DNA from: Lingula anatina
Lineage: Eukaryota > Animalia > Brachiopoda
Length of the DNA stretch: 64,000 bases
Assembly (NCBI GenBank): GCA_051362555.1
Contig: CM120640.1
Coordinates: 6,448,001-6,512,000 of the forward strand
Direction: 5' to 3'
Under the pieces are notes generated by a model. It ran no database searches and was not told the DNA's origin. It saw nothing but the letters and a program-made list of their open reading frames with translations. The first letter of the stretch is position 1. Each line of letters begins with the position of its first letter. The position numbers were made by a program, and so were the translations under genes. Shown piece after piece: positions 38,277-64,000 of the stretch.

Positions 38277-38310
<34 letters not shown>

Positions 38311-41300
38311 TTGAAATTTATCTTAAAATGTAAAAAAGACGTCTCTATTTATATCAACTCTTATGATACCATATCATTCCTGTGTCAGCGAAACATAGAA
38401 TTTATGTGACAACTTGTGTAAAAAGAAGAAAAAATTTCAGTACGTTTACAGGTGTAAAAAGAGCAATAATGGTACACAGATATAATGAACATATAAATCT
38501 GTACCTGTTCCTGGGCCTGTGTAGACAGGGGAGCATAATCCTGCAGTAAGGAGGCCATGGCAAAGTAAGTACTAGATAACTCCCAGCTCACAGAGTCCCA
38601 GATGGTGGGATTCTTTGACCTACTGCTGATGATACTCAGGGCTTTCTTGTAGAAATCACAGGCCTTATGGGAACAAAAGAAGTTTCCTTCAATATACTTC
38701 TGGTTTTCAACAATAAAATGGTTTTACAAAGACATTAATCAAAGCTATATATTATGCCACATGATAAAAAGACACATTAACAATCAATTTATGAAGAAAA
38801 GAAAAATAATTAAATAGCAATAGCAAACTTATTATCTCTAATTGTCATTAAACTAAGCTAACTCTTAGTCCTCAACTCACTTTGCTATAATAAACTCTCT
38901 CTTGAGCACTGAACTCTCTGCGCTGTCCACCATCGACATATTGCACAAAGGCCTGCGCACACAGTCGCATTAAACGGCCTATGTTAGAAGTGAGAAGTGC
39001 AATGTTTGCCTCATCACTGACACTATCAAACAGCATGATGCCCCGTTCAAAGCAGGTCTGGCTGGTTTTCCAGAGGTCTTCAACTTGCTTCGATGGTCCT
39101 TCAAAACCTAAAACAACAAGAGAAGATCCTGATTAATATATTTCAGAGCTTTTATAGTATCTACTGCTTTAGACAATGACAGAAAAAGGACGCCATACAA
39201 TATAACAGAAACAGAAAGAATTGAGAATTAAATCAACAATGAATGAATAGGACAAAGTTTGAAAGGAGAATTTAGAGAAAAGTAAAAAGAGACTGAGACA
39301 TCAGCTCAGTTGTATGTCTCATCAGCAATGTACTGTGTGCCCTCACTATAAGTATAACCCTAACTCACTTGCTTCATTTGTTAAAACTGCTGCCTGGTTC
39401 ATATACAGGACACCAAGTTCATTCCTCACATTCCCCTGCCGCTTGATCAGACTTTCCTGTTTCTCTGTATTATTGTATCTTTGGGAAATCTCTAATGCCA
39501 GCTGATAACAGTGCAGAGCATCTGTTAAATTCTTCTCTGTGCCAGAACTGAACTGACACGCCCACTCAAAACCTATATAAAAATACATTTGGAGTAAATG
39601 GAAAAATACAATGGAAATGTAACTTTCTGGAAGTCATGTATGTACTTTGAAACTGCAAATTCTTTTCAAAATACTTGAAATGTAAGCCACAATACAGGGT
39701 TCAAAAAGAAAGTTTAACCAAGTAATTCTGAGTTAAGTAAATAATTAAAATAAATCAGCAATCATAATTTTAACAGGTAATTTTTTTTACTGAATATTTA
39801 CCTTACAGTCAATACTTACTAAACTCTTGCAGCTCTAAACTGACACTTTCCAAAATCACAGAATCATACTCTGACATATATCTGTATGCTTCTTCATAGA
39901 CTTGTAACTGGTTGACATTCTGTGTCAGCATCAGCCTGATGTCACCTGTCAAACTGTACATCATCTCCAATAGGGGGTCACTCTCCTGACCCTTCTGTGG
40001 ACACAGTGTGCGCATGGCATCTAAAAAAATGAAGGTTGGCTACACAGCACACACCCAAAAGAATTAATTGCCGTTTTTGGATGTATTTATGTCACACTTA
40101 TGCACAAACACTTATCTCATTTAAAACTCTGCCACTAGAGTGCATAATGAATTACATCTTAAATATTTTCTTAAATCTTTTCCTGTTTTAGAAATTTTTT
40201 CGTTTCTTTTACTAGCACTTTTAAAATATTTATTCACACTGCATTGTAAAGTCTACTGAAAAAAATTTGGATTTTAGACTCAAAATATATATTATCACTA
40301 TTATCATTTTACAAATATTGAAAATCTTAACTTACCAAAACAAAGTAAAGCCAGTCTAACATACTTCAGTGCTTGACCATACTTAAATAAAGAGTTTTTA
40401 GCATCAGCTATACTGTAGTATGCCAGTACCCCTTTTCTCAGAAGTAAAACTTTCGAGTTGTAATGCCATGTTCCTGGGGAAACTGTCACTTTTACTTTGT
40501 CTTTTTTCAATAAAACTAAGCTGTCACTTCTTTCTCTTGACTCTGAACTGGCGAAAGAATCATCATTCTCTTTGTCTTCATGAACAAAGTCAGGTTTGAG
40601 ATCGAGTTCACTTATTGGCTGATAGTGCAGTGGTATGGCTTGATATGGGTTGCAGGTTTTGGGAGCCATACCATGCTCTTGCATCTCTCGTCGCTTTTTT
40701 ATTTCTTTAACTTCACTGTCTATACATTTTAAACCCTAAAACAACAAAACCATCAGTGAATATATAAACAATTTTATAAAAATAAACTCTTAAAGTTTGT
40801 ATTGATCAATCTAAGGCAAAAAAGAGAACAAGGATGAATCATTTATAGACCTACTAAAAAATAAGAGGCTTTTTCCAGCACAAGTATTTCATTTGATGAT
40901 ATTGTTTGACATTCTCTTAAGTGGTAGAAAGCAAAAAAAATCTTCTTATGGTTATTATATTCTGCAATATTTAAAACTATAACACAGTGAAAAAAAATAC
41001 CTCAGCAATAAACTTCAGCCCCTCCAAGCACCTGTCTTCTACATTTCCACAGACTGGTGGGAACCGCAACACTTCATTGACATCATTCTTCTCCTTCTCT
41101 GGCAATCTTAAGGTCTTCACTGCCACTGATGTTTGTGCCTTCACAGTCTTTTCTTCATCATCATCTTCATCTTCTACCCAGCCCTAAGGAGTAAAAATCC
41201 AAGCCATACATGGCCAAATATAATTTTTTATTAAAGTACTTGCAAATTTTATCTTAGTGATGCCATTAAGTTGAGCTACAACTGACATTTTCAAAGTTTC

Positions 41301-44300
41301 ACAAAAAATCGAATTTTAAAATAAAATAATGTTATTTTGTTACATAAGTTGTTTACTGGACTCAATGACATGTTAATTAGTGGACTCCAGATGCTCACAT
41401 GTGGCTGTTGTTCCTCCTCACAGTCAGACTCATCACTGGAGACCAGATTCTGCTCCTGTACAGAGGACAGGAACTCTTCATTCACAAACAAATCACACAG
41501 GATGAAGTAAGCTGATGCAGTCACCTTATGTATATACATATAAAACAATTAAGGGTTTTATCATTTTAAGTAAAAGTTTAGCTCTAAAACTGGGAGTAGA
41601 ATCTACAAGCACTTGAAAATCAGCAATCACATTATTTTCTATTTTAAACAAGAATAACTTATAATCAATGACCTCAACCTTTTATAACAAATTTGATGGT
41701 GATGAAACATGGTAATAAATAAGCCTACATGGCAGTGCATTTCCTGTTATTGTGAAACTATTTTCAGCTTTTCTTAAATAATGATCATAATAGGATATAC
41801 TGGTAAATCTTGTACTACAAGCACATGAGCAACACTCTAAGCATGTATTTCTAATTAATTTTTACAGCAAGCTATACTACACCTGTGAGAACTTGTCCCT
41901 GTCCAACAATTTCAATGCGTTCTTCAGCAAAGTTCTAATTGTCCCCGACTTCTTCCTTCCACTACTTTGCCACATGTTATATGCCACTTTATATAGCAAC
42001 ATACCAACAGGGACAGTGAATGGATTGTCCATTTTATCATTCATGTCATCTGCACATAATGTTGTCAGGTCGTACAACTTAACTACATCATTGTCAGTCT
42101 CTGGAAAAACAAATTGGTGAATAAATGATCATTGCTATAACAGATTCAGACCACATTAAGTATAGAAATTTCAAAGACAAGAGAACCAAAGTGTATGTGC
42201 ATGTGAATATATGCCTGTGGATCCTTGCTTGCTAGTAATTGTGTGTGCACATAAATGCAGCATATGCAGTGTGTATTTGTGCATGGGAATGTTTGTTAGT
42301 TTACCTTCTTTATTAATAAAATATAAGATATACTAAACAGCACAGACTCCTCACCTTTAAAAAGCCAATAGGTATGTCCCTCTTTTGTTGCATTAGACTT
42401 GAGGAATGAAAGGATATTCTGTGCTATATCCTTCACCACTGTAGGGGAGAATTTGGAACTCTCCAGGTTTGGGATTTCTTCAGTCTTAAACAGCTCATAT
42501 TTCTGCACAGGAAAGCTTTACAATTAGTAAGCTTTTTTCATTTTTTGTATGTATCATAATACACACTTTCATGTTGCTTAGGTAAAATATGAGTTAGTTT
42601 TGACTAAAAGACACTGCCAGTCATTTTATCTATCTATCCATACCATCTTCCATAAGGGGGATTACTTATGATCCCAGAAAATGTAACAAATTTACCATCA
42701 ACAGAAAAAAAACGAATCATTTAACATCACCTGAACAATGCCATCAAGATGATAACACATGGCCAGCTCTGGTACGTTACACATCAAGTTGTCCAACCAA
42801 TAGTCTATCCCTGTCAGCACATTGATGGGTTTACTGGTATCTCTGGGAGAATTTAAATAGTAAAATTTAATGAAGCATTATTCAGACAGAACTGTACATA
42901 ATACTGAACAATAAGATCTGTTCATGTGCTTTTAAATATTATTTAAGTCCATTATAAAGTATACATTCTCTGTATCTTAAGTTTGATGCATTGTGTGCTA
43001 CTATGGTATTGCTATTGTACTACTATGACATTACTCAATATACTGTGACAGTGTGCGCTTTCTTTACCTTAGTCTTAAACTAACACATGGTCTAGCTTCA
43101 CCTCCAAAGATGGGAAGATCTGTTCCAATGAGCATACGAATGTCCTCAAAATTCCAGATGACAGTGCGCTGAAATTCTCCATTTCTTGGCTGTAAAAATC
43201 AAGAGTGTTGAAAAGAAAATATCTAAATATATTTTTAAAAGTGCTCCTTTTGATTTTAATTCAATCTAGTCATTATTAGAGATAAAAAAATTATATCAGT
43301 GCTAAGATTCAAGGGAATAATTTGGAACAGGAAATGTAGATTGTAAATTCTACATTAGTGCTGACTGTGCTGGAAAGTGCTTATGTGGCTAAGAAAATTC
43401 AGTTTGACTAAAAACTGATAAAAAACACTGAAGGGACATAAAAAAGAAAAAATCTATTTATTTAGAATTTGTCAAGTTTCTCTCATGATCTGGCAGAAGA
43501 AAGAACTTTACCTATCTACTCACTGTTCCTATAGAGGGAGATTAGAAGAGCTTTTTGTAGAAACACCTTGACAGACATAATAAACAAATACCATGTCAGG
43601 CACATGTACTGACCCTCAGAGTGCTCAAGTATATTAAGGTTGTTGCTAAACACATGCTGGGGTTACCATATTCAAGCATTTTGTCTTGAAATTACTTCAT
43701 ATGTTAATTTTATTGTAGCTAACTGAAACTGCCACAAGGAGAGGGTCAGACATCATGGACAGACACACAGACAATCACATTTATGGACAACTTGAGTACA
43801 ATACACTTCCTTACTTCATACTAGGAAATAATTATGCTAGCTTTACCCCAAAAAATAAAACTGATTTCAAAAAAGATCTAAATACCTCTTGTTCAGATTC
43901 TGGCAGCAATTGCTTGCTTTCCTTCCCCCCTTCACTGCTCTGACCACTATTATCCTGTATACTAAGGAGGAAAGTAAAACAATGAAAAAATCTGTTCTGA
44001 GTCAAAATTAAAACAAGCATAACTTTTTTTTTTAATGCTTCTTAAACAGCAGTAAAAAAAACTATGTGCTTCCAAATAATCTGAAGCATCTACAAAAAAA
44101 ACTTAATAACATATGTCAACAGGCAGCTTAGTTTGATACATTACAAGTCAATAATTAAGACAATAAAAGCATTATACCAACCTATAATAAAGGAATTTTG
44201 AAAACATATTCCTATTCTGAAGAAAATTTCTACTATTGTTTTTCCTCAAGCAAACTCTTTCCTAAAAGATGAAAATAATGCTTTATGTTAATTAACAACA

Positions 44301-45902
44301 CAAAGCAGAACTAGAACAAAAATAAGCTGTTGTGTTACAGTTTGATCTTTATTAATTATCATTCATTAAAAATCCTTTCTAAAATGACTAGAGGCAGTTT
44401 CTTATCACTTTTTTCCCTTCAGTGACAGAATACACTTAAAGCTATTGGACTCCTACCTTTTCAGCCTTATTCTGTTCCACAGTTTCACAGTAGAATTTTC
44501 TCATCCATTCCCAATCCTCCTAATCAAAAAAGAAGACAGGAATTCAGTAATTAAGATGTGGATAACCTCTTTATTCCCAATTATCCTTATTTTATTGAGA
44601 AATGACATGTCATAATACAAAAGCAAATGATACCGTGTATTAAACTTCGGTGTATCACACCTTACACTCTGCCATGTCTAGCAATAGAACATCTTTAAAA
44701 AGGAAAAATTATTGCCATTATAAATGGTTTATCATTTTTTGCTTACAGCAATCCAAATTAATACAACTGCTTATGTACTAGCCTTCTGACTAAAGGAACT
44801 AAGCCATACCTCTTGCTGCCTAAGAAGATGTCTGTGCACATCAAAGTCATCTAGGAGTAAAGTTTTTCCCACCCTGTGTACCATCATGCTCACATGACCC
44901 TTGCTGTACGGGAGCTTCAGTAGCTTCTTGATGTTCTACACAGATCAATAAATATACCGTTAAACTGTTTACTTTTTAAAAACACTGTGCACTGTTAATT
45001 AATGAGCACATCAATCAGATCACACAAACATTAAAGGGCAATAAGAGCAAACAGCCTGAAAATCTTTTAAAACTAGCCAATTGCCATTAATCAAATTCAA
45101 AACCTACAAATAAAACAATTTACAAATCTGGGCATAAAACTCTTACTTCAGAGTCAGAGATGACATCCAGTTCATCCACCAGGTCTGGAGAGCGATGTGC
45201 CATTTTGATACTAGAGAACTCGCTCCTCTTCCCCCCTTGCATGTCTTTCACGTAACACTCTTCCTCTGAGCCCCCACGAAGCCAGTTGGAAGGTGGTTCC
45301 TTCAGGTCTGTGTTCTTTTGCAGCTGCATGTATGTGGCAGGTGTTTCATAGCGGCAATATTTCACCACTGCTGTGGACTTCACCTCCGTGTCCTTGAAAG
45401 CAGTCTGAAGTGAAATTTATCAATGAACAGGGCTGCAGCAGAAGTATTTATTTAAAAAAATTAAAAGGTTAAAGTGGAAATAGTATATTCCCCTGGTAGT
45501 TTTATTCATGACACAATAATGTTTTATAGAGGAGAGGCACACTGTGGAATGGTCCATAAGTAACCATAACCACAGTAACTGTTACAGTACAAATAATTTT
45601 CTGATTTTGTGTTTGACAGAGTCAGAGGACGTTTCGCCCCCAGGCTTCGCATAGAAACCAGTCAGATTATTACCCAAACAATAATATGTAAACAAAAGTG
45701 TGGAAATTGAAACCTAACGACTTTTACTAAATGTATAATTGCAAACGCTAACATTTAATGTACTGTGCAATGCAGCTTTAACAATGTGATACGCTGGGTT
45801 AGAGGCTAGAGCGGATTCGCGTGTGAAGTCCAACAAAAACTCTCATTCAATTCTTATCTTTTTAAACATAGTACTTACGTATCCGTTGTCTGTTTCGGAC
45901 AT
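36208..45902 (-). CDS. EDRF1: erythroid differentiation regulatory factor 1 homolog (~1142 aa)
   Basis: 21 phase-consistent GT-AG exons: 45879-45902, 45147-45404, 44810-44935, 44457-44519, 44182-44261, 43886-43961, 43068-43189, 42731-42842, 42355-42502, 41883-42100, 41399-41524, 41001-41183, 40336-40735, 39820-40020, 39369-39572, 38881-39107, 38505-38663, 38021-38170, 37345-37492, 36728-36959, 36208-36379. Motifs VKSTAVVKY, PPSNWLR, NIKKLLKLPYSK, TGIDYWLDNL, LSFLKSNATKEGHTYWLFK, WELSSTYFAMASLLQDYAP and RAATIHHRLASLYH match EDRF1 as recalled. Confidence 0.93.
38260..38307. repeat. poly(G) plus (GA)n microsatellite in an EDRF1 intron
   Basis: Directly visible. Confidence 0.9.
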
Positions 45903-46033: not shown

Positions 46034-48257
46034 ATGGAGTGCGACGTGACGTTGATGTTACTTGTAATCTTTTTATTTGTCGACGTAACAGGTAAGATTC
46101 GTTAGTGGTGTTTTGCATCCTTATAAGAAAACCACTAGTTCTGATCTGTGTGAAACATATATGTATTATTATTGACAAATTAAAAACCAAGTCACCCAAT
46201 ATAAACGCTCTGACAGTCTGACATGTACATGACATGTACGGTACGTGACTGTACATTATGATTATAACTTTACTAGTTGCCAGTTAGCAGTAATTACTCG
46301 CCTTATAATAACTTCTACGTTTACATATATTACTGGGATACAACCTAAGTACATGCTGTTATATATATACTTAGTACCTGAGAATTTTAGGGTCTACATC
46401 TCCACAAACAAGATACTGTATAATCATTAAGTTAGGGACCATTCCCACACCCCATCGTACTGTACTAGCATGATCGATCTGTCTCCGAGTGGTTTCTTAC
46501 TAATTAGATCCTGCAAATACGATAGGTTTATGGGAACCCAGTCTTAGGCATCTAACGACGCATGCAAAGGCAGCTAAGATGTCAGACTGTGTATATATAT
46601 ATACATGTACAGTATGTACACATATACATATAGGACGTAGCACGAAAGTTCATGCGTTAGCACTCCTATTGACGATTCTGATATGCATTGGCTGTGTACA
46701 GCTAGTACATATCAGAATCGTCAATAGGAGTGCTAACGCATGAATTTTTGTGCTAACATAGAGGCTGAGGTACTAGCGCGAAATCCATGGGTCAGCACTC
46801 CTATTTACACTCACCTTGCCTGTTTTCGGTTCAGGCATGAAGTTTTCTTAGATCTCACTCTTAACAATCCAATTTCAGATGCATCTCAAGAAAGGAAAGT
46901 GTATACGAGTCCTCTGCGGGTCCAGTTGGAGGATGGGATATTCATGGAGATACTGGAGCCAGAGAGCATCAGGTTTACATACAAACTGAGACCGGCCAAA
47001 AATTTTGGAGGAGTTTTTGTAAGAAACCACCTGGTTACTTTTGATGTGTGACAGTTCTGTTCATTGTCTAAGCCAAAATTGTACCACCTTACATATTTTG
47101 TAACTCAGCTTTGCCATGTATTAGCTGCTGCCATCTTACTTCTACCAGTAACCTTACCAAAATATATTAATTTTACTCCTACACTTAACGTGTGGAAATA
47201 AAACACTTTTGAATCTGAACATGACCTGCATACAACATTCAATGAAAGTAGATTGATTAACTACTTTCTCTTAACCTTTATATTACTTTCTTCAGAATCA
47301 GAGTTTAGCTGGACTCCACCTCATTCCCACCGACCCCATCCATGGATGCAGCCCCTTCAATAAACCTTATCTGTTTGAAAACCAAGTAGCTTTAATAGAG
47401 CGAGGGTAAGTGTATTTGAATTTTATGTATTGTTTATCTATTAATTTTTAAATGCTGAAAAACATTAATGTAATTTAATGATTGAAAAAAAATCTCAATT
47501 CTTTGGTAAGTGAATATAATAAATTAACATCTAATGAAAGAAAATCTGTGAAAATACCCTTTTTTAAATTTTTTTAATCAACTCATTCTTGCTTTTCTGA
47601 AAATGATATGTAACCGGCACAACATATACATTTTCTGATATTACTGCAGCATTTGATTAATAATTGTAAAAACAGGTTGCTGGGCTTCTATATATATATG
47701 TTACGTAATGTAATCTGTATTATTTCAGAGAATGCTCTTTCCTAACCAAAGCAATACATGCCCAGCAAGCTGGGGCAGTAGCTGCTGTGATCACTGACAA
47801 CCAACCAGATAATGTGGAGATGTATATTGATATGATTGAAGATGGAACAAACAGGGATTCTGTCATTCCTGTTTTATTTTTGCTAGGAAAAAATGGGTGA
47901 GTGGTTCTCCTTACAAGTATTATAGTCACATTTTATTTTGTTGATGACAACAACAAAAATAATTAGTTTTGAGACCAGTAGGCAATGGATTTAGTTTGAA
48001 AAAGACCTTTATTTTTGATAAATTATATTTTGGATGCATTTTTATTCCAGCCTCAGTTTTAAAAGCCCAAGTCCATGTAGATATACCATTTGTGATTCTT
48101 TGTAACTGGTAAATTTTCAAATTTCCATCTTTTCAGATATATGATCAGGAAAACATTGCAGCAGGAACACTTAATGAGTGCTATTATCAACATTCCCGTG
48201 AACATCACTGGTATCCCAATTAACAAGCTGAACCAGCCACCCTGGTCTTTATGGTGA
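46034..48257 (+). CDS. PRADC1: protease-associated domain-containing protein 1 (198 aa, secreted)
   Basis: Exons 46034-46091, 46879-47018, 47296-47405, 47729-47896 and 48137-48257. Signal peptide, PAKNFGGVF, VALIERGECSFLTKA, IPVLFLLGKNGYMIR and C-terminal QPPWSLW. Confidence 0.93.
46638..46804. mobile_element. palindromic MITE-like element in PRADC1 intron 1
   Basis: 46638-46755 is a near-perfect hairpin (TTCATGCGTTAGCACTCCTATTGACGATTCTGATATG and its reverse complement). A further AGCACTCCTAT copy lies at 46794-46804. Confidence 0.75.
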
Positions 48258-48798
48258 AATCCTGTTGACAGTTATATTTTAATTGGAGTAAAAACCATTT
48301 TTCATTTACTTTTTAAAATCTCACATGTTCATGAATTTGAAAACCTATGCATTAATGAATTTTTTGTGCATTTATGAATTCAGATAATTATACACAACTG
48401 TTCATGATTACTGGCAGCCAGTTTTACGTATTTGTTTACCCACTTTTGAGTAATCGCTGTTGAATGACCCTTTATCATGATATAAGGAAGTTCTGTAACA
48501 TTTGGATGCATGCTACCTGGAAAATGTTGACTCAGCAGAAAGGATGTCTTAAAAATGAGAATTATTTGTATGGAGGCTGCTCAATGTATTAGTTATGTAA
48601 TGGACGGCAAAATTATTTGACATGCGATTTGTAAAAAAAAAATACAAGTTATATTTTGGGGAATAATGGTTACCTTCCCACCTTCCCTCTATGCAATATC
48701 TCTAGTACAGGTCTTACTAATATTAATACAAAGCCATTCTGTATTTATCATGGTTGACATTTCAACTTTAAGCTTAATTGTTGCCAAACATAGTGTTA

Positions 48799-49013
48799 CA
48801 CCCCATTTCCATAGATTAGATCGACCTACTTTAGATCAACCTAACTCCCTGGGGGTTCACGCTAAATAGCTGTCAGCCGGGCGGACACGAAAGTTAATTA
48901 CCCCCTTACAGCTTGTAGTAGGCAGGACGGACATTTAAGTCGGATTATCTGAAAGTAATCTATTGAGACTCCCCGCGGGGATAGATCGATCTAAAATCTA
49001 TGGGAATAGAGCC
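48799..49013. mobile_element. degenerate Harbinger-like MITE
   Basis: Left ATTTCCATAGATTAGATCGACCT and right AGATCGATCTAAAATCTATGGGAATAGAGCC are inverted, with TTA/TAA flanks. CpG-richer than the surroundings. Confidence 0.6.
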
Positions 49014-49917
49014 TAAGCTAAGGTTAGATGTCCTCTCTACACATTTTATCCTTACGAGTAAAAATAAAGATAGATTGTTATTTTGCTTATTTGCGTTGTG
49101 ATGCAAAAATGTGAATGAATATATAGAATATATAATGAAGGGTTAATTGAATGTTGGCATAAGACATCAAATAAAAATGTTATCAATGGAGTAGATAAAT
49201 CTTATAAGTTAATGGACTTTCCTTTTAAACCGTAAAAGAAAGAACAAGTCAACAAGTCTGATTCTGAAATATAAGTAATTCAGTAAATGCACTTCCAATT
49301 TATTGTAACGATTTTCTCAAAATCAAAAAAAAGCTCCAAACTACATACATTTCTAACATAAATTTATAAAAAATGTATTGATTTTCTCAGCAAAAGAAAA
49401 TTTTATCAAGCAACAATACCCGTTATTCTGAAGGGCACAAGATGTTTTCAAAAATGCCGTCTTAACTCGACTGCTACTTCAATTTAAATCAATTCTTTAT
49501 TTTCACAATTTATCTTTGCTTTCTCTAAGTTCTCTTAAATACTATATAGAAGTTAAAGACAAATAATTTGCAATATATTATTTACATATTCATTGAATGA
49601 AAAGAGCTTATCATTATCAATGCTCACGTAAAGGATTTGTTACATTTTATATACACTGATTTTTCATATAAAATTAAACTTACTTTTAATTACATCACCC
49701 TGCACACCAACACTTGCACCAGTCAAAATTTTAATTCACTTTCTCCTGTTAGCAATTAAAATGGAGAGACTAAATTATTTGTTATTGACATATGACATAT
49801 AACGTGTGATTTAGTTCTATACACTTATTTGATAAGTATCACAGAAATGAATTTGTTTAAAAAGAACTTAAATAGTAAAAAAATATTATCTGGTATCAAT
49901 AAAATGGAAGGAAAGTA

Positions 49918-52900
49918 TCAGTTCTGATCCGTCACTGGTTCCGTCAGCTGACAGTTTAAACCATCCCTATGACCTGAAGAGGACGAAATAATACGGTCCA
50001 AATTAAGATTCAACTAATATGAAGATCCAAGTGAACAAATAAATCATTTACTATCTTTGCAAAAAGAAAAGAAAAATGAAAAAAAAAATACTATGGAATT
50101 ATGATGAATAAAAAGGTGAAGCTTTTTGAAAAAATGTGCTTATTCTAAGGGATCATCAGTCTGAGAATAATTATTTGAGGTGCATGTTGGTGCATTTTAA
50201 TGCTCGTCTTGCTCTTATGAAATGTATTGTAAATCATTTCACCACACCTGTGCTTTACAGTAAAGGAACTTTGTCATAATGTACTTAAATCAACATCTAC
50301 AACTTGGTGGGGACTCCTGCTAACTGCAATAAGAACGACAGATGAACACACCTTTTGTTTCCAATGTACTCGTATAATCACCAGCTTTTCTGAATTCTAT
50401 TCAACCCCAGGAGCATTCAGCGAGAGTCCCCACAGATCGATATTGAACGATAGTTTCATTGGGAATGGGGCCTAAGGTATTACATAAGAGTAATGACTAA
50501 CCTTTGTAGAACCAAACCAATTGTTCAAGACTCTCAAATGATCTGTGCTCGCTGATGCAATACATATTGTCTTCTGTCCGCTTAATTTCATAGTGTTTGG
50601 GTTTCCAGTGATCATTTCCCACTGGTGAAAACACGGACAGGACACAGCACACTGAAAAGAATACCTACTTTAAAGATCAATTCGCATAATACCTCATCAA
50701 ACTTCTTCGTAAAAATTATAAGATTTTCTGTTCCCAACATTGTGATTTAAAAATTTAGGGAACGTCTTTCCACTTTCCTAGTATTCTTCTCAAGTCAAAG
50801 AATTGAGTTCTGACTAGTTCGACTGAATGCATGTACACATTCTTTCATAAAAATTAATATACGGGACTGAATTGTTGACACACATGGCAGAGGGCCACAT
50901 TCTGTATTACATTGACAAAGTATGACAGAAATGTACCATTACCATCATGATCTCCTTTATCTGCTCTACTTTTCTGTCTTAAAAGGTAAGCTCCCTTTTG
51001 TCCATGTTTCTTCAATATTTTCTTTGCTTGACGGCGATCACAGCTAAAAAATGCAATAATTACAATAAAGCTAATCATTTCATTTATCTAATTCCATCCT
51101 TTTTTTTGCAACTTTACCTTTTGTCATTGTAAAATTTGCCTTTTTACATATTACAGCTACAAGTAAATGATTCCATTTATACCTATAATCTCACTCACTT
51201 AGATAACTGAACACTGAAATCTGGTGGAGGAGCCACTTCAAACTCTGCCATACTCTCTGCCACTGCACTTCCTGATTCAGAAATGCTGTGTACTCTTTGG
51301 TATTTACTTGGTGGGTGAGACATTTGTCTTGTCCATGATGCCAAGGTACCATTATCTATCACTGATGGAAGAACAGTCTTCGACACTTTGGTAGTCAGGT
51401 AGAAGTTTTGGGGAGACGCTCTGCCTGGGTAGCTTGAAGACAGTCTTTCCTCCGGGGATGATGAGAAGTTGCCTGATGCACTATTCTGAGCTAAACACAG
51501 GCCTCCAGATGGTGAAGGAGAAACTGACTGTGCTTTTTGTTGAGTCATCACACTTAGCTCAGTGATGGCATACGGCTGTGTAGTAGGCAAACCAGGAGCT
51601 GGAAGAGCTGGTCTTTGAGGGTACCTCAATGCTGGGACCACTCTACATTCTTCAATCTCTAAGAAGTTCTTAGGGACATAACCAACCCTTTGGTCTCTAT
51701 GGTCCTTCACAAGCCACCAATTGAAATGATGACTGTAACATTTACAAAAATGAAGATATTTCCCATGCTTTATCGCAAATATTTTTACACTCCTTTATCA
51801 GACCCCTCATAAAATAAACTATTATCCTCAAAATTTGTAGCAATAAGTTTCAACAACCTGATTACATATGAAAATGACATAGATTGGGAAATCGCAGGAA
51901 AACAGAATTTTTTGATAAATGATCATTTACAATCTTTTCCAAAACTCTCTCTCTCTCTCTCTCTCTTCCTCTCATTGAGTTCTTCTGTCCTTTTAATAAT
52001 AATAACATGCACATTTAATGAGAAAATACATGACATGTAACATACCTATCATTGAGAATCTGGAATATATCCCCTGTATTGAAGGACAACTCCCTCTTGT
52101 GTTTTCTTTCATATCTAAACTTTCCTTTTGCCATTCTTGCTGTACCTAAAAATGCATTTTAAATCATAAATAAACAAATCTGTACAACTATTGAAAAATC
52201 TGACTGAAACAAATATACAATATTGTAATGGAATTAATGGCGAGACATTTGCAACTTCTGTATAACTGTATATGTTTGCTGTACCTCATGCACTACTAGT
52301 AAACAGAGAAATAGAATGTGTCTAACAAATAAGAATGAATTTTTTTTTGTAAAACATAGTCTTCAGGAACTACTCCCACATTTCAAAACTTATACAGATT
52401 TTTAATACTTTTGGATGATAAGGCAACTCCACTAACATAAAAATAAGTAAGGCAGCTCAAAAGAAATTACTTTACAAAAACTAAGCCAAAGAGGTCCAGC
52501 TCGTATAGGAAGACATTCTCATGAAAGGTAGATTTGACATACATGTTTCATAGATATTTTCATGCAACTCTCCAATGTGCTCGCCTCGATGTTGCCTTTG
52601 AACATGTATCTTCATCTGTGAGCGTCTGAGGACAGTGGGGCAGTGACCTGTAGGGCAACAGACTTGTGTCTCCTGGCAGTTGAACCATATATGAAGGTCA
52701 AGGGCACTGCCCGACTTGGTGCAGGCCCGAGAGCAGTTTGGACATTCTGTAAAATTTTCTGCCCAGCAGAGTTGAGGATCTAAACAAATAATATAATTTG
52801 AGTTAGTTTATCAGAAATGTTTTTATCCAGGTGTGAAACTATGAATAGCTTGTGATAAATCATGCACGCCAATTTACATAACACATAAACATGTACACGC

Positions 52901-54758
52901 TTTATAACTAAAATATCTACTAACGTTTTAGTGATAGTCATAACTAAATTTGGAAGAAAAAAAAGCATTGAAACAGCTACATTTCACTCTTATCACAAGG
53001 CCATAATGAGGCTGAATGCCCACAGATCCAGAGGTGTTGGTAGACCTGTGAACAATTCTAACTTGAGGTAGTAATTTCTGCCCATTACCACCTAGAGTGA
53101 GAATCATTCACTATCACTAAAATGTTAGTAAATACATTAGTAAATAGAAATTATTAGAACTATTAATATTTTAGCAATCAATGTTATTGATTGCTTAAAT
53201 ATTAGGATTTGCAAATACTTACTTTCAAAATGCAAAGAAAACTAATCAACCTTTTCTCTTGAAGCAATACTTTGTTAGTAACGCCTCAAGGAGATAATTT
53301 TGAGTTGACTTTTAAAAGTGCATTTGATGAGAAAACAAAAATGAAAAATCTTGAAATCTTGAAATTAAAATTATTCAACAATTGAGGTATGTGAAACAAC
53401 AGTAGTAACCATTTTTAAGAGAGATTTGAAAACATTTATAAAGCAGTCAAGTATCATTCTTACCATTTTCCTTACTACATGAAAGGCATGCAAAAAAAAA
53501 AAACATTATATATGATCCTATGAAACAGAATATGTCATCATTGGTCCATCACGTTTATAATCCACAGCAACTAGGTCTTTTTTCTTTTAAAAATGTTTAT
53601 ATTAAATAAAAATAACAATGTCACGATGTCAATAATGAACCATTTTTTAATTTATTTTTACCTATTAATTTATTTATCTTTGTTTGTTTGTTTGTTTGTT
53701 TGTTTGTTTGTTTATTTATTTATGTTTTGCAAATACCATTAAAAGTAAAAAATGAGTGAAAGCAAAAACAACCGTTAAAGCTTTTGTGCCAGGTTACGAT
53801 CCATATATCTCGAATTTTTTAGATCCAGCAATCAATCATAGTACACTCAATCTGTACACTAGAGATATGATTAAATCAATTACCACCTTATAAATAGTAT
53901 AAAAACAATCTTCTAGTAGATAAAAAGCATTCAGATACATGTAACCCTACCTCAATATGCAAAAATGAAACAACAGATCTAGGTCAAGTGGTACTGTGAC
54001 AACATACAGGCCAAGGGCCTTTGCTCCAGCTGAGCTACATACTGAATACAGTGAAGTGAGGGAAGGTTATGTTGAATGGAGTTGGGCAATTTTCATTATG
54101 CCTTTGTGTGTTGCTGTGGGATGCACCAAGAAAGGCAGCAAATGTGTTTTCTGAAGAATATGCTACGTTCAAGCCATTCTGACGGTTTGACGCAATTCCT
54201 TTAACATGTTTGCAAATTATTAAAATGTTTGAATATTTTTTGCCTTTTCTATATTGCACTTAAACAATCCCTGTGTTGGTGAAAAAAATTGAGAGAAAAC
54301 ATTACAAATTGTAAGAATTAACTACAGTACAGTAACTTACCTTGTAGAGCTGCAATAATTCTATCCATATATCTATCATCCTTGTCCACATCAATGCATC
54401 TTAGGGCCTTCAGTGTCTCAGGTATTTCATGGGGGTTTAAATCTTTTATCACAGGAATGAGCACAATATCATTGGAAGGGTTTTCCATTTTGTCGTAAGC
54501 CTTTATCATGGCCACCCCTCTCTCCATCTCACACCACCCGTCCTTCAAAAAGTTGTTAGTTAAATAAAGCAGAACCTTTCTGGCTTCCTTCATAGCCACA
54601 TCACGGGCTTGGATTTCATTTTGACCAGGGATAATGTCCTTGTGGGCCCGAAAACAGACATAGTTGTGACTCTGTATTTCATTCACCAGAGGCTCTACCA
54701 AGTGGTCATCTTCCTCACTACTTGCCACATAAACATCCCAGTGTGGTTGTGCTATCAT
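49918..54758 (-). CDS. TIR / TRAF-type zinc finger / SH3 / SH2 adaptor protein (531 aa)
   Basis: Phase-consistent exons 54341-54758 (TIR: WDVYVASS..DIIPG..GWCEME..LIPV), 52543-52779 (CPNC..H..C and CPTGHC..H..H zinc fingers), 52046-52145 plus 51199-51732 (SH3: ELSFNTGD..NWWLV..GYVPKNFL, then Pro/Ser linker), and 50943-51043, 50502-50651, 49918-49973 (SH2: GAYLLRQ..LSV..KHYEI..FESLEQLVWFY..HRDGLNCQLTEP). Total 1596 nt. Confidence 0.85.
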
Positions 54759-55876
54759 GCTCTCTGAGTTTTCTGTCACTAGCACATGGGTGAAAGATGT
54801 AAAAACTGAAAATTCTGAAAATCTAGCTTGCAATTTCTCATTTCAAGACCATATGAAAAAAACTATTAAAATGAAGACTGAAAATCTTGTAATCAGTCAT
54901 GATTCCTGAAAACTTTCACCCATGTTAGCAAGATATTTACTCAGAAGCACCCATGGCTGAAATGAAGTAATGGACTACAATTTAACAAACTAAGAAAAAA
55001 TATTAAAAACACCATCACTACTGGTTTATATGTAAATGAAAGCCATATTTTATGCCACATCTAACAAAATCTTAATATTGCTGATTTAGACAATGATCTC
55101 TAGCAAATACTGGTAGTCTTTTAAGTTTAAAAACTGTGAAACCTTGGTGGCTACTTGTAATTTTATATGTATACTGTACAAATTTGTGCCAATACTCCCC
55201 CCCCTTTGGGGGTATGGTTTGGGGAATATATTTCTTTACCAATAAGATTACATTTATACATGTGCCAGTAAATATACTTTGAAAGCAATTATACTAGCTA
55301 CATCTACCAAAAGAAGTTTACCGGTACTTGCCATATCCTGTAAAAAGGTATATAATGGTATCTTCAAAACCATAAAGACATCCGTATGCAAATGCAGACA
55401 AAGGGACACACACATTTGCATCTTCTACCACCATATCCCTACTTAATTCAGGAACAAAACTCTTGGCCAAAAACAGAAATTCCAATGATTCATCTTGATA
55501 AAGAATTAAAGCACTCACTTTCAGAGCAAAAGTCGCAGATACACTTTATCTAAATCCACCAACTCACTTTATGTCACAAACCGCTTCCTGTAGAAGTACA
55601 ACCTACAAACAGTAGGCTACTGTATAACATGTCTACTGCTTATCCTGGTAGGAATTTTGGATAATTCATATGTTTAAAGTAAAGGAATTCTTACACAGTA
55701 AAAACATGCAATAATTAAAAAAAAACTTTTAAGCTTAAAAGCTGTCGAGGACAGTCAGGTCAGCGTTTAACGTATGTCCTTATCATAAAACTAAAGGTGA
55801 CGAATCATTATGAATTAACTCTAATTCCACTTTCGAAATCAGATTGGCTTTGACTAAGAAAAAAATTATAAATATT

Positions 55877-56130
55877 ACTTTCGTTTTCGTGATTTCAACA
55901 GTACTACAGTAGTACCAGTAAACCTACCAGTACCAGTACGTCACACGTACTTCCTAGCAGCTCGTGATGCCTTTTGATACAGAATTTAATAACTTACCCT
56001 GGCATGTCCAATTACGTTATGTGTGTAGCCAATGGCAAGATTCTACTGACAAAACAGTCGGTGAGCATGTTTGTAAACAAACAATTGCGGTTTTCGGAAC
56101 AAGATGGCGAACTGATCCTACTTCCGGGAC
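55877..56130 (-). promoter_or_regulatory. promoter / non-coding first exon of the TIR-SH3-SH2 gene
   Basis: Minus-strand donor GG|GTAAGT at ~55997, ETS site CTTCCGG at 56121-56127, YY1-like AAGATGGCG at 56101 and ISRE-like GAAAACGAAAGT (minus strand, 55877-55888). CpG content rises here. Confidence 0.5.
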
Positions 56131-58044
56131 TGAATTCAAGATACACTCAATGATTCATTGATAAGGGATAACCTCATCAAGAACTGCCAGTGCAGTGTTG
56201 TCATTGAGACCTTTGGCGCCAGTTTCGAGAAAAAGGAAAATAAGCTACGGTGCAGTACGGCTTAATCTGGCTATAACTACACCGTGTTGCCTTCAAAACG
56301 GAGATTGTGTTAGTGGTGCTAGCTCAACACAACTGTCGCATTGTTCACCGGCCGGCAGATGTTAGGCTTGCAATAAAACATTTCCTCAGTCCATCAGGTT
56401 TTGTTGTGCTTTTCCTTCAGCCAGCTTCTTGATGTTTCACCGGTGGTAGGCCTACAAATAACCAGCCTATGTGCATTGTTGGTGTATTGTAACTGTTCCA
56501 CCTCCCCATCTCTCCCCTCCCACACACATAGGCATTTAAACACGTTGTAACACGTAGGCCTACCAGCCCAAACACGTACAGTGACACAATTTCTTCTCGG
56601 TCTTCTCACTTTTCAGCCGGCACATATTGAAATCCACAGAATCCTTGAACTAACCATACATATTTCAAATTATCTTTGATTATAAAAGCCAAAATTCTGA
56701 CATGTCTTAAGTCTAAAAATATGGAATTTCGTTCAGATTATGGAACAGTTAGAAGCAAATAATAATAATAATAATAATAAAGTATTAGGTCTATCTCATG
56801 CCCTTCCCGATCTGTGTGATGAGTCCAGTATCGGTAGCATCGCGCGTCTGTAGCCTAGATAGGCCTACAAATGTAGGGCCTATTGGCACAGCACGATATT
56901 TCGGCTATGTTTCCAATAGCTGGATGAACTGTTACTGGTTTGACTGACTCTAAATTATATTTGGGAATTAGTTAAGTCCCCCATACCTTTAGTAGCTTAT
57001 TCAATAATGCAGTGTGACAAAATGTTCTCATTGTAGGCCTAGATCTAAGCCTTTGTTAACAAACTTTGGATTAAGACTCGTTACATGAACTTACATCACA
57101 AAACCAAAGCACACGTCAATACAGCACCAGCAACGTTAGGATTATGGCTTTCATCGAATTTTACAATCTAGTACCGAAAGTGTGCTTATGACTTTACAGT
57201 AGCCTATCTTACATCTAAAAAAACGAAACAGGACTTCATCTATCCCAATTTTTACTTTCATAAAATTTTGATCCACAAGCACTTTTGTTTGCATAGAGGC
57301 AATGAACATGGTCTTGAACATGGTTAAAAAGAATCATTTTGTTACGTCACGTTTTGCAATCTGAAACCGTAATCCTCTTATGGTTGGTTTTCGTAGGATA
57401 ATTTGGGTAATCTTTTTCGCTTTCTGTCTTTCTTGATTGTTTCCTCTAAATTGAATCTAGGTTCAGCATTCGATGTCTGACATCCACAGAGAGCAGCGTG
57501 ATATATCATCACTTTACATGGACAGCAAGGTCACAACTTTTTGTGTCAGTCTGCTATGTGAGAAAGAACGAAAATGAGACCTTTGTTAATTTCCTGAAGA
57601 TTGTATCCCTCATCTGCTAGGTTTGCGTGGACGCTAAGACAACGCTACAGTCTTGGGTTTTCATCGTGACGTCTGCCCTTGTGTGGATTATGACGTGATT
57701 TATCATGTCAGATGCTTTCTTTGTTTAAACTGTTTATTACGTGTCGAAAATGAGAAACTGCCCATGAATCAAGACTATGAAAGTAATACGCGCCTGACAA
57801 CGTGACTCCGAGGAATGAAGAATAACGAAAAAGCAATCTCATGAAAGATGGCTGCAGGATGCAATGATCTACATGTGGTATATCTCTGGATGTGAGGTAT
57901 AATCAACAGTGGCATATAAGATTTGTTTCTGATTTAAAACTGAAGTACTTTATTTAGGAAAACAAATGAAGACACGATTTCATTATTTTTGAGAAAATTA
58001 GGTGCTGTCTTTAATGCATATTTTCCATGTTTATATAATATTCG

Positions 58045-59109
58045 ATGAACTGTCTCAAAATGGATTCTCCCAGACTTAGATACATACGCTCTTTAAATCG
58101 TGTTAAGGAAAATGAGCTCAATCAAAAACTTGAGAAACTGTCGGTGGAAGCCGACTGTCGTTTGGAAACATTGAACAGACATCAAAGTGATTTCAGTAAG
58201 CGCTACGCCGAGCACCTGCCTGCAATGGGCTGCAACAGAAATGAGGACCTTCCGTGTCGCGGCCAGTACCTGCCACCAATACGAATGACTAGCGAGCCCT
58301 CGCTCAAAGTACACGTCAACTCTCCACAGGTGGGACGTAAACCCATATCTAGCTACGTCGAAAACTTCAGGAAGAAATCCCCAAAGCTCCCGCCCGCAGT
58401 AGACCATAATACGAGGCAAGAAAATCTCCAAGAACCGACGAGGAATCATACGAGGAACAGGACGCACCCTCTGGACAACACCGCAGACAAATTGATGCCC
58501 TTGCCCGAGAGAAAAAGACAAGATAGTTTGCGCCGTTCGTGGAGCGATGGGAGTCTTCTAGGAGAAACTGGTTTCTCCCCTAGGCCGTCTACTTCTAGAG
58601 GGTCTAACAGGGCACAGTTACTCCGAAACGAAATGACGCTGAAAAACAAGTGTCCGTTGGCGCCTATCAGAGAGAGCACAAAGACTGAACTCGAGAAACA
58701 CTCACAACAAAACACAGATCAACTGCAAGATGTCTACATAGAACTTTCCGACAACAACTCAAAATCTTTAAGGCTGAAAAGAAAGAAAACTAAACCTAGG
58801 ATCCACCTAGCTTCAAACTGCGAGGATTACTGTGATACAGATGGACCGAGCGACGCACCAACAGAGAATCCTTTCCTTCAGAAAAGAGTTTATCGCAAAA
58901 GGTTTCGGTCTCTAATCAAGGGTGTGTTTGACAAACTGAAAGTGAATAGAATTTTAGAGCAATGGCTGGAGGAGGCGGAGGAGAGGGATACAGTGGAGGA
59001 GGACCTGTTTTCCGACACTCTCCGTCAAGAACTTGAACGCTGCAGATATCTTCGCATGCCGTACGAGACTGGGGATGACGTTGATCATAATCCTGGCTTA
59101 GACTTATAA
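58045..59109 (+). CDS. uncharacterised protein, N-terminal coiled coil and C-terminal CRYLR motif (CCDC190-like?)
   Basis: Intronless 354-aa ATG ORF, far longer than background. Heptad-like N-terminus (NRVKENELNQKLEKL), disordered middle and C-terminal ELERCRYLR. The family assignment is tentative. Confidence 0.75.
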   Translation: MNCLKMDSPRLRYIRSLNRVKENELNQKLEKLSVEADCRLETLNRHQSDFSKRYAEHLPAMGCNRNEDLPCRGQYLPPIRMTSEPSLKVHVNSPQVGRKPISSYVENFRKKSPKLPPAVDHNTRQENLQEPTRNHTRNRTHPLDNTADKLMPLPERKRQDSLRRSWSDGSLLGETGFSPRPSTSRGSNRAQLLRNEMTLKNKCPLAPIRESTKTELEKHSQQNTDQLQDVYIELSDNNSKSLRLKRKKTKPRIHLASNCEDYCDTDGPSDAPTENPFLQKRVYRKRFRSLIKGVFDKLKVNRILEQWLEEAEERDTVEEDLFSDTLRQELERCRYLRMPYETGDDVDHNPGLDL

Positions 59110-62664: not shown

Positions 62665-63586
62665 TCACCGCCTTTCGGTAAAACGAGATTCGCATTCGGC
62701 AATCATTCCCTGAGCCTGTAATAAACATCATTTCAATGTAATCCGTATTTTAAAAAGAAACTAACCAATATTGCGCAACTTCTACTGTTTCTCAAACATG
62801 CGATTTACATGACTTGGTAAAGTATAACAGAATAATAATCAGTTGTAAGTGTAGATAACAGTCAGTTTTTTACTAATAGAACATTGTGGGACTCTGTGAT
62901 AAAAACGCACCCAGACATAAAATGTGGCCGCCCCAGCGCTCACATCGTGTACTTTATCTTTGCTGAATCTGGCCAGGATCTGCTTGGCTCGAAGGGCTAC
63001 ATCTACTGCAAGTTTCTCAACGTTAAACTGAGAAACCATCCGTTTCAAGCTTTCTTTACCAGTTTTGCCCATAAACGCTTGTACGGACCGCCATTCCTAT
63101 AGAAAAGATCAATTTGGGGACTATCGTTAATTACATTCCACACTAAGTGTCTAAAATTTAAACCTTAGTTTTTTCACATTTTAGCAATTGAAAAAAGACT
63201 AAAGCAACATTGAAATTAAATGTCTTTTTAATCTTCATGTAAAGCATTTTCTCAAAGATATCCTCACAGATAAGAAACATTTATAAATCACAGTAAATCA
63301 CTTACCTTCACTTGGTCTTCTGTTAACCCAAGCAAAAGGTACGATGCCACCATAACTTGATGAACAGCATCCGGCGGATTGGAATAACTCCGTATCTCAG
63401 CTATGGTCTTTTGGTCCAAATTCAGGATATCATGGCGCAGTTTTTCAATGTGTCTTAGGTGTTCTAGGACACGTTTGGCGTAAGCAAGCTCAAGGTTAAG
63501 GCTCTTGTTGTAGTTGGCAGCCTCTCCAGCTTCTATGGCCCTCTCTAACACATCCACCTCACGAACAGACATTGCTGTCACAAGAT
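62665..63586 (-). CDS. 3' exons of a gene with a dynein stalk/MTBD-like helical domain (hillarin/KY-like C-terminus?), partial
   Basis: Exons 63306-63586, 62911-63096 and 62665-62715 are phase-consistent: ...LDQKTIAEIRSYSNPPDAVHQVMVASYLLLG..EWRSVQAFMGK..VSAGAATFYVWAQGMIAE..ERR*. The 5' part lies beyond the window. Confidence 0.8.
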
Positions 63587-64000
63587 CTGCAAATGAGCAA
63601 AAGTGAACAAAATTAAATTTTGCCTCTGTTCTCATTCATTTACCTACCTATTTATTAATATACTTATATTTTCAGTATGTATTTATTGGTTGTAGGCCTA
63701 CTCGATGTGATTCAATCTTAGTACCTATGAACAGCCAGATACAGCATCTACCCTACCACCAATACCCCGTGCTTACATCACCCTTTCGCTAAACGCATTT
63801 ACTATGTTCAAACTCGACTTTGATTTTATTCTACATGTAATTTTATTGATTTATTTAATTTAATTTTAGCCACATTCCGTACAAAAATGTATTTTCTAAA
63901 CGCTTAGTAATTCTATTGCTGTATTAGTACAGGAAGATTCAAGGTAAAACACTCAAAAGAACATATATTTGTAGCTGCAAATCAAGTTAATGAGTAACGT

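What the first reader, a model, noticed from the sequence alone, without database searches (positions are those of the whole stretch)
49918..54758. Unusual kinase-less adaptor joining TIR, TRAF-type zinc fingers, SH3 and SH2
Seen in sequence: seven exons splice in frame (1596 nt, all phases consistent) into TIR, two TRAF-like zinc fingers, SH3, a ~150 aa Pro/Ser linker and a Src-like SH2, then a stop, with no kinase domain. The zinc-finger exon and most SH3/SH2 exons are missing from the ORF track. Established knowledge: TIR adaptors such as MyD88, MAL and SARM1 lack SH2/SH3, while Src/Tec kinases and SLAP/Grb2-type adaptors lack TIR. In mammals BTK links to TLR adaptors in trans. Inference: this may be a lineage-specific, exon-shuffled bridge between Toll/TIR signalling and phosphotyrosine signalling. 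I do not recognise this architecture from any described gene.
Basis: partly seen in the sequence, partly recalled or inferred. Interest (0 to 1): 0.88.

Follow-up and report, generated by a model that had tools for sequence, protein, structure and literature searches.

The report
Kinase-less Src adaptor with Toll domain
This is a real, spliced and expressed gene of a lamp shell (brachiopod) that joins a Toll-type immune signalling domain to the two binding domains of a Src-like kinase but has no kinase, so it likely works as an adaptor linking tyrosine-phosphorylation signals to innate immune signalling.

Summary
Observation confirmed. Seven minus-strand exons (1,596 nt, all GT-AG) give a 531-aa TIR, two-zinc-finger, SH3, linker, SH2 protein. 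All six coding junctions occur in RNA-seq (24-51 reads each, in 6-8 of 8 runs). No kinase exon follows. The product matches RefSeq LOC106169678 of Lingula anatina (2 residues differ), which is unnamed. New here: (1) an unnamed 435-aa protein (P0044) has the same collinear architecture at 26-37% identity, so this is not a one-off; (2) 10 of 10 listed SH3/SH2 variants are synonymous; (3) SH3-SH2 best match Src/Fyn, and the exon sizes and phases fit the Src gene as I recall it, suggesting a Src copy that lost its kinase and swapped its N-terminus for TIR and zinc-finger exons; (4) the TIR lies outside the TLR clade, and its putative catalytic Glu is absent in P0044. The 'TRAF' label for the fingers is below threshold. 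Best reading: a non-enzymatic adaptor that docks on phosphotyrosine and clusters TIR domains. No binding or immune function was tested. I found no description in the searchable literature, but the two most relevant papers (Gerdol 2017, 2018) were not available.

The parts
55998..56290 (-). Non-coding 5' exon; its 3' end is exact, its 5' end approximate. Splices to 54778 or 54956.
   Evidence: Junction 55998>54778: 10 reads in 3 of 8 runs. Junction 55998>54956: 6 reads in 2 of 8 runs. No in-frame Met upstream of 54758 in either form.
54341..54758 (-). Coding exon 1 (418 nt, ends in phase 1): TIR domain, aa 1-139, with BB-loop Pro44-Gly45 and alphaC Trp75-Cys76-x-x-Glu79
   Evidence: Pfam TIR_2 E 1.5e-13; alignments to TLR2 and oyster TIR-STING; column check
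52543..52779 (-). Coding exon 2 (237 nt, symmetric phase 1-1): two zinc fingers, CCHC then CCHH, TRAF/SIAH-like, aa 140-218
   Evidence: Ligands C152 C155 H169 C174 and C180 C186 H198 H203; second-finger spacing (5, 11, 4) identical in P0044; zf-TRAF below cut-off
52046..52145 (-). Coding exon 3 (100 nt): first half of the SH3 domain
   Evidence: Pfam SH3_1; the intron after it falls in codon Ser252, which aligns with the n-Src loop of Src
51199..51732 (-). Coding exon 4 (534 nt): second half of SH3, three PxxP motifs (aa 290-301) and the Ser/Pro-rich linker, most of which is absent in P0044
50943..51043 (-). Coding exon 5 (101 nt): start of SH2, with Arg433 and Arg452 at the two phosphotyrosine-binding arginine positions
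   Evidence: Alignment to Src SH2; both arginines shared with P0044
50502..50651 (-). Coding exon 6 (150 nt): SH2 core, including His483-Tyr484
   Evidence: Pfam SH2 E 1.2e-6 for the exon alone
49918..49973 (-). Coding exon 7 (56 nt to the stop): end of SH2, TGA at 49920-49918, where a Src kinase would continue into the linker and kinase; reads continue as 3' UTR to about 49400-49500

Best explanation
The locus is a spliced, expressed gene for a 531-aa TIR, zinc-finger, SH3, SH2 protein with no kinase, which likely arose from a Src-family kinase gene copy and likely works as a non-enzymatic adaptor that converts phosphotyrosine signals into TIR-domain assembly. Shown: gene structure, expression, domain content, no kinase, a second protein with the same architecture, and an excess of synonymous variants. 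Inferred origin: a Src-family duplicate acquired a stop just after SH2, and its membrane-anchor/unique exon was replaced at a phase-1 intron by a TIR exon and a symmetric phase 1-1 zinc-finger exon. Inferred mechanism: the protein has no N-terminal myristoylation glycine, so it is cytosolic until its SH2 (both phosphate-binding arginines kept) binds tyrosine-phosphorylated receptor tails or scaffolds, helped by SH3 binding to PxxP motifs. Clustering there, possibly aided by the zinc fingers, would let the N-terminal TIR domains join or nucleate BB-loop-dependent scaffold assemblies with other TIR proteins and so pass the signal to innate immune pathways. This is the same layout as TIR-STING: ligand-binding module at the C-terminus, TIR at the N-terminus.
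For: All six junctions in RNA-seq. TIR, SH3 and SH2 above Pfam cut-offs. Best solved-structure matches are Src and Fyn SH3-SH2 (E 3e-13); P0044 aligns to Src SH3-SH2 as one continuous unit. The intron in codon 252 falls in the n-Src loop, where Src has an exon boundary (PMC5318895, passages). Exon sizes 100/534/101/150/56 and phases 1,2,2,1,1 compare with vertebrate SRC sizes 100/99/104/150/156 and the same phases (recalled, not verified by any search). P0044 is collinear over TIR-finger-SH3 (26% over 319 columns, E 8e-32) and SH2 (37%, E 4e-9) and keeps both SH2 arginines. Of 33 listed coding variants 22 are synonymous, and 10 of 10 in SH3 and SH2. The TIR lies outside a starred 11-row clade that holds the named TLR rows, unresolved among cytosolic and TIR-STING-type TIRs. 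The alphaC Glu is replaced by Thr in P0044, which favours a scaffold role for the family. SLAP is a precedent for a Src-derived adaptor (PMC6562749, passages).
Against: No interaction, localisation or immune response was tested, and the direction of signal flow rests on analogy. Both proteins lack the usual Trp at the start of SH2 and have Lys in place of the Ser two residues after the key arginine, so phosphotyrosine binding may be weakened. P0044 has Ala for the BB-loop Pro and lacks the acidic SH3 pocket residue. For SH2 alone, Tec-family chains score as well as Src (TXK 36.7, BTK 34.4, Src 33.4 bits), so the Src origin leans on the recalled intron map. The two TIRs are not sisters in the free tree; their clade is merely not rejected (p-AU 0.137). 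Only two members were found. The variants counted were only the best-supported rows the tool printed (40 per call, 196 and 133 more not shown). Vertebrate analogues SLAP and BCAP are reported as dampeners.
Confidence: 0.45

Rival explanations
1. SLAP/SOCS-like dampener. The TIR is the address: it docks on activated TIR assemblies, and SH3-SH2 then compete with real Src-family kinases or bring in a ubiquitin ligase or phosphatase, turning signalling down.
For: SLAP arose from a SRC duplication, competes with SRC and docks CBL on phosphorylated targets (PMC6562749, passages). BCAP and SARM1 are reported to negatively regulate TLR signalling (PMC8635717, passages). The protein has no enzyme or death domain.
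Against: It ends 5 residues after SH2, so it has no SLAP-like CBL-binding tail, and no RING was found. The TIR is not from the TLR clade.
Confidence: 0.25
2. Phosphotyrosine-triggered TIR enzyme. SH2-driven clustering activates NAD+ cleavage by the TIR, as oligomerisation does in SARM1.
For: Glu79 sits at the alphaC position. Enzyme TIRs need self-association and a catalytic Glu (PMC8635717, passages). The second-best PDB match for the TIR exon is an oyster TIR-STING.
Against: P0044 has Thr at that position. TLR2, a scaffold TIR, has the same Glu, and 36 of 48 tree rows carry it, so it does not discriminate. SARM1 is not among the 36 PDB matches to E 1.
Confidence: 0.12
3. Integrated decoy or guard. 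The Src-like SH3-SH2 is bait for microbial or viral proteins that engage host Src kinases, and binding triggers the TIR.
For: The layout matches sensor-plus-TIR fusions among the nearest TIR relatives (TIR-STING, TIR-TPR, ankyrin-TIR). Grafting of immune domains by exon gain is documented in Lingula RLRs (PMC8998645, passages).
Against: A decoy in an arms race should change fast, but 10 of 10 listed SH3/SH2 variants are synonymous. No family expansion was seen: one cluster member.
Confidence: 0.08
4. A decaying, functionless Src duplicate, or a mis-joined gene model.
For: The SH2 and SH3 have lost some consensus residues. Expression is low (about 1-20x depth in the part of each run that was read). 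There are no long reads.
Against: Every junction is read in 6-8 of 8 runs from 3 studies. The frame is intact, variants are mostly synonymous, and a homolog at 26-37% identity keeps the whole architecture.
Confidence: 0.03

Closest known systems
SLAP/SLAP2 (SLA, SLA2; Src-like adaptor proteins of vertebrates)
   Same: Kinase-less adaptor with the SH3 and SH2 domains of Src, from a SRC duplication (PMC6562749, passages).
   Different: SLAP has a myristoylated N-terminus and a C-terminal CBL-binding tail. This protein has TIR and zinc fingers at the N-terminus, a long SH3-SH2 linker and no tail. The origins appear independent.
Src-family kinases (Src, Fyn); Tec-family kinases second
   Same: SH3-SH2 order and sequence; intron map (one boundary supported, the rest recalled).
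   Different: No kinase, no membrane anchor, no regulatory tail; about 150 residues between SH3 and SH2.
BCAP (PIK3AP1) and BANK1
   Same: TIR-containing cytosolic adaptors at the border of TLR and tyrosine-kinase signalling (BCAP listed as a TIR adaptor in PMC8635717; the phosphotyrosine role is recalled).
   Different: They carry DBB and ankyrin domains and display phosphotyrosine motifs for other proteins' SH2 domains (recalled). This protein carries the SH2 reader itself.
Lophotrochozoan TIR-STING and other cytosolic TIR fusions (TIR-TPR, ankyrin-TIR)
   Same: These are among the best-scoring TIR relatives (P0003, P0005, P0007). TIR-STING has the same N-terminal TIR plus C-terminal ligand-binding layout.
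   Different: The ligand module here is SH3-SH2. The tree does not resolve a sister group.
MyD88, MAL/TIRAP, TRAM, SARM1
   Same: TIR with a BB-loop Pro-Gly; MAL and TRAM match at E 7e-5 to 4e-4, MyD88 only at E 0.1.
   Different: No death, SAM or ARM domain was found, and none of these adaptors has SH2 or SH3 (recalled).
TRAF and SIAH zinc fingers
   Same: CCHC then CCHH finger pair; zf-TRAF is the best Pfam family in 2 of 2 members, and Sina_ZnF weakly in one.
   Different: Below the curated cut-off; no RING and no MATH domain; PDB matches are C2H2 proteins.

Membership tests
SLAP/SLA adaptors | Src-type SH3 followed by SH2, no kinase | tested here: met
SLAP/SLA adaptors | Short myristoylated N-terminus | tested here: not met
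   Starts Met-Ile directly into the TIR; no upstream in-frame Met in either 5' form
SLAP/SLA adaptors | Unique C-terminal CBL-binding tail | tested here: not met
   Stop 5 residues after the SH2 end
Src-family kinases | SH3-SH2 most similar to Src/Fyn | tested here: met
   Top PDB matches for P0001, A1 and the SH3-SH2 of P0044; SH2 alone does not separate Src from Tec
Src-family kinases | Tyrosine kinase domain after SH2 | tested here: not met
   Stop in exon 7, no junction beyond it listed, no kinase Pfam hit in 6 of 17 downstream ORFs scanned
Src-family kinases | Shared intron positions and phases in SH3-SH2 | tested here: inconclusive
   Own introns mapped; the Src map is recalled except the n-Src-loop boundary; searches listed no paper that, by title and abstract start, gives exon sizes
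Scaffold TIR adaptors (MyD88, MAL, TRIF, TRAM, BCAP) | TIR with BB-loop Pro-Gly | tested here: met
   Pro44-Gly45 in P0001; Ala-Gly in P0044
Scaffold TIR adaptors (MyD88, MAL, TRIF, TRAM, BCAP) | Family partner domain (death, DBB, ARM/SAM) | tested here: not met
   None in the Pfam scan to E 1
Scaffold TIR adaptors (MyD88, MAL, TRIF, TRAM, BCAP) | Binds TLR or adaptor TIR assemblies | not tested
   No complex prediction or experiment was run
Enzyme TIRs (SARM1-like NADases) | Catalytic Glu in helix alphaC | tested here: inconclusive
   Glu79 present, Thr in P0044, and Glu also present in TLR2
Enzyme TIRs (SARM1-like NADases) | NAD+ cleavage on oligomerisation | not testable with these tools
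   Needs an assay
TRAF proteins | TRAF-type zinc fingers | tested here: inconclusive
   zf-TRAF E 0.029 and 0.0005, under the cut-off in P0001; PDB favours C2H2
TRAF proteins | RING and MATH/TRAF-C domains | tested here: not met
   Absent

The most novel reading that the evidence does not exclude
An old, conserved family of marine-invertebrate phosphotyrosine sensors in which the SH3-SH2 reader of Src has been grafted onto a TIR output module, so that tyrosine-kinase receptors (or microbial proteins phosphorylated by host kinases) nucleate a TIR signalosome directly, without a Toll receptor: a hard-wired, single-chain version of the kinase-to-TIR crosstalk that vertebrates build from separate proteins.
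Probability: 0.25. Interest if true: 0.82.

Novelty: new variant of a known kind. Interest (0 to 1): 0.62.

Why it matters
If it works as inferred, it is a natural single-protein link between the two signalling systems and a second, independent case of Src being turned into an adaptor (after SLAP). Its exon structure makes the origin checkable with one genome comparison, and its domains are small enough for direct binding tests. It tempers interest that shuffled TIR architectures are common in marine invertebrates (20 of 28 TIR combinations in amphioxus are specific to it; PMC2575513, passages), that only two members are known, and that no function is shown.

Tried and rejected
No whole genome is held, so Lingula paralogs and Lingula Src introns could not be examined. 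Word-index protein searches with the TIR exon (longer proteins), with P0001 and with alignment A1 each returned only P0001; they missed even P0044, so they say little about range. The representative search listed 150 of 216 TIR hits; of the 149 non-self proteins, 1 (P0044) matched the finger, SH3 and SH2 parts; the 66 unlisted hits were not seen. ESM Atlas: no usable feature hit for P0001 or P0044, and the structure neighbours reached TM 0.30 at most by query. Metagenome scan: 231 pattern matches, 0 confirmed. Two AlphaFold models were unusable (mean pLDDT 31.5 and 33.4), so no fold search was run. No complex prediction was run. NCBIfam gave only weak bacterial TIR matches far under cut-off. 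The run index listed no RNA holder by shared words; runs came by species label. No long reads were listed. Earlier-findings look-ups returned nothing. Rejected: an N-terminal extension; a downstream kinase; use of a phase-2 cryptic donor at 51624 that would drop the linker (no such junction listed); origin of the TIR from a TLR. Literature: ten searches. Those aimed at the architecture gave 2, 0, 1 and 1 papers; passages of PMC8195603 concern TRADD-N proteins, passages of PMC8998645 concern RLRs, and the Weckle preprint was seen only as a listing. Passages of PMC4595640 and PMC8662601 hold no mention of SH2. Gerdol et al. 2018 (Lingula immune genes) and 2017 (TIR proteins of Metazoa) are not held; they or their supplements may already list this gene. 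No supplements were read.
Full report
Observation. All six introns are GT-AG, with phases 1,1,2,2,1,1. Eight public RNA-seq runs from three studies, chosen by species label, were laid on the region. Each coding junction is read: 24, 51, 33, 45, 45 and 43 reads, in 7, 8, 6, 7, 7 and 7 of 8 runs. No alternative coding junction reached the three-read listing threshold. Only 6-30% of each run was read and all reads are short, so rare isoforms and end-to-end continuity are not shown directly. A non-coding 5' exon ending at 55998 joins either 54778 or 54956, and neither form adds an in-frame Met.

Identity. The product matches RefSeq LOC106169678 of Lingula anatina (P0001, 531 aa, 'uncharacterized') except at residues 32 and 427. 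Pfam gives TIR_2, SH3_1 and SH2 above cut-off. No junction beyond exon 7 is listed, reads run on as 3' UTR, six of the 17 downstream minus-strand ORFs of 25 aa or more (the longest) have no kinase match, and a convergent PA-domain gene ends 1,661 bases after the stop. The protein is therefore kinase-less.

A second member. An exhaustive search with the TIR exon gave 216 hits, 150 listed. Of the 149 non-self proteins, one, P0044 (435 aa, unnamed, on a 1,834-base contig), also matches the zinc-finger, SH3 and SH2 parts and has Pfam TIR, weak zf-TRAF, SH3 and SH2. It is collinear with P0001: 26% identity over 319 columns and 37% over the SH2, with most of the long linker missing. Whether it is an ortholog from another animal or an old paralog is not known. 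Further members were not found, but the other searches were insensitive enough to miss P0044 itself.

Selection. Among the best-supported read differences printed fall in the coding sequence. Of these 22 are synonymous (p 6e-7 against a 25% expectation), including 10 of 10 in SH3 and SH2; the TIR and the fingers each show 3 synonymous and 3 replacement changes. The tool withheld 196 and 133 further rows, so this is a sample.

Origin of SH3-SH2. The best solved-structure matches are Src and Fyn, and P0044 aligns to Src SH3-SH2 as one unit. SH2 alone scores equally with Tec-family chains. The intron in codon 252 aligns with the n-Src loop, where Src has an exon boundary used by the N1 microexon (PMC5318895, passages; PMC5577857, passages). 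The last five exons measure 100, 534, 101, 150 and 56 nt, with phases 1,2,2,1,1. As I recall it, vertebrate SRC has 100, 99, 104, 150 and 156 nt exons over the same domains, with the same phases; three searches listed no source for this, so it is a strong lead and not a test. On that reading a Src copy gained a stop early in the exon that leads into the kinase, expanded one exon into a linker, and took a TIR exon and a symmetric phase 1-1 finger exon at the phase-1 intron before SH3.

Domain features. The SH2 keeps Arg433, Arg452 and His483-Tyr484, also in P0044, but both proteins lack the leading Trp and have Lys for the Ser after the key arginine. The SH3 of P0001 keeps the aromatic, acidic and Pro residues of the ligand groove; P0044 has lost the acidic one. 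The fingers are CCHC then CCHH, with identical second-finger spacing in both proteins. zf-TRAF is the best Pfam family in 2 of 2 members (E 0.029 and 0.0005), but the 26 PDB matches are nearly all C2H2 proteins and none is a TRAF or SIAH, so the label is unsettled. The TIR has BB-loop Pro44-Gly45 and Glu79; P0044 has Ala and Thr there. In a 48-row tree (a hand-picked subset of the 165 TIR stretches), both lie outside a starred 11-row clade holding the named TLRs and are unresolved among cytosolic and TIR-STING-type TIRs. They are not sisters in the free tree, and their clade is not rejected (p-AU 0.137).

Mechanism. With no enzyme, no membrane anchor and three binding modules, an adaptor role is the simplest reading. 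I favour SH3-SH2 as input and TIR as output (0.45), because the nearest TIR types include N-terminal TIRs fused to a C-terminal ligand-binding domain, and because scaffold TIRs signal by BB-loop-dependent assembly (PMC8635717, passages). The reverse, a SLAP-like dampener addressed by its TIR, is the main rival (0.25). An NADase (0.12) is weakened by P0044, and a decoy (0.08) by the conserved SH3 and SH2. None of these steps was tested.

Comparison and novelty. It works like a cross between SLAP (a Src-derived adaptor; PMC6562749, passages) and a cytosolic TIR adaptor, but it fails membership of SLAP, Src kinases, TRAFs and the named TIR adaptors on defining features. Four searches aimed at the architecture found no description. 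The two catalogues most likely to list it, Gerdol 2017 and 2018, could not be read. Shuffled TIR and immune architectures are a known theme in amphioxus and lophotrochozoans (passages). Verdict: a real and apparently undescribed domain combination, a new variant of a known kind, interest 0.62.

Noticed in passing
window 56005 (minus strand), 28 nt upstream of the start in the 55998>54778 form: An out-of-frame upstream ATG opens a 22-codon frame that overlaps the main start in this 5' form but closes after 7 codons in the 55998>54956 form; the alternative acceptor could tune translation.
   Followed up: partly
window 51624: A phase-2 GT early in exon 4 would, if used, remove about 142 linker residues and give a Src-sized exon of 108 nt; no such junction was listed in 8 runs.
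   Followed up: partly
window 48796-49028: Short element with very deep read cover, opposite-strand joints and many loose ends, as expected of a high-copy inverted-repeat mobile element between this gene and its neighbour. Smaller repeats behave alike at about 50355-50448, 53970-54004 and 54789-54840.
   Followed up: no
runs X7-X9 versus X1-X5 on window 49300-56500: Runs of study P3 carry many fixed differences in the exons where studies P1 and P2 match the window, although all bear one species label; a divergent population or cryptic species is possible.
   Followed up: partly
window 58039-59109 (+): A 356-residue stop-free frame, head to head with this gene, with no convincing Pfam family.
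   Followed up: partly
window 22756-24770 (+), about 37289-45416 (-), 46737-48257 (+): Neighbours: a matrix metalloproteinase, an EDRF1-like gene and a PA-domain gene; no immune or kinase cluster seen in the window.
   Followed up: partly
proteins P0003, P0151 (Lingula), P0032, P0091: Tandem TIR-STING-TIR-STING proteins; Lingula has two near-identical loci.
   Followed up: no
window 63288-63635 (-): A 115-residue coding-like frame of a gene that runs off the window, with only weak Pfam matches.
   Followed up: no
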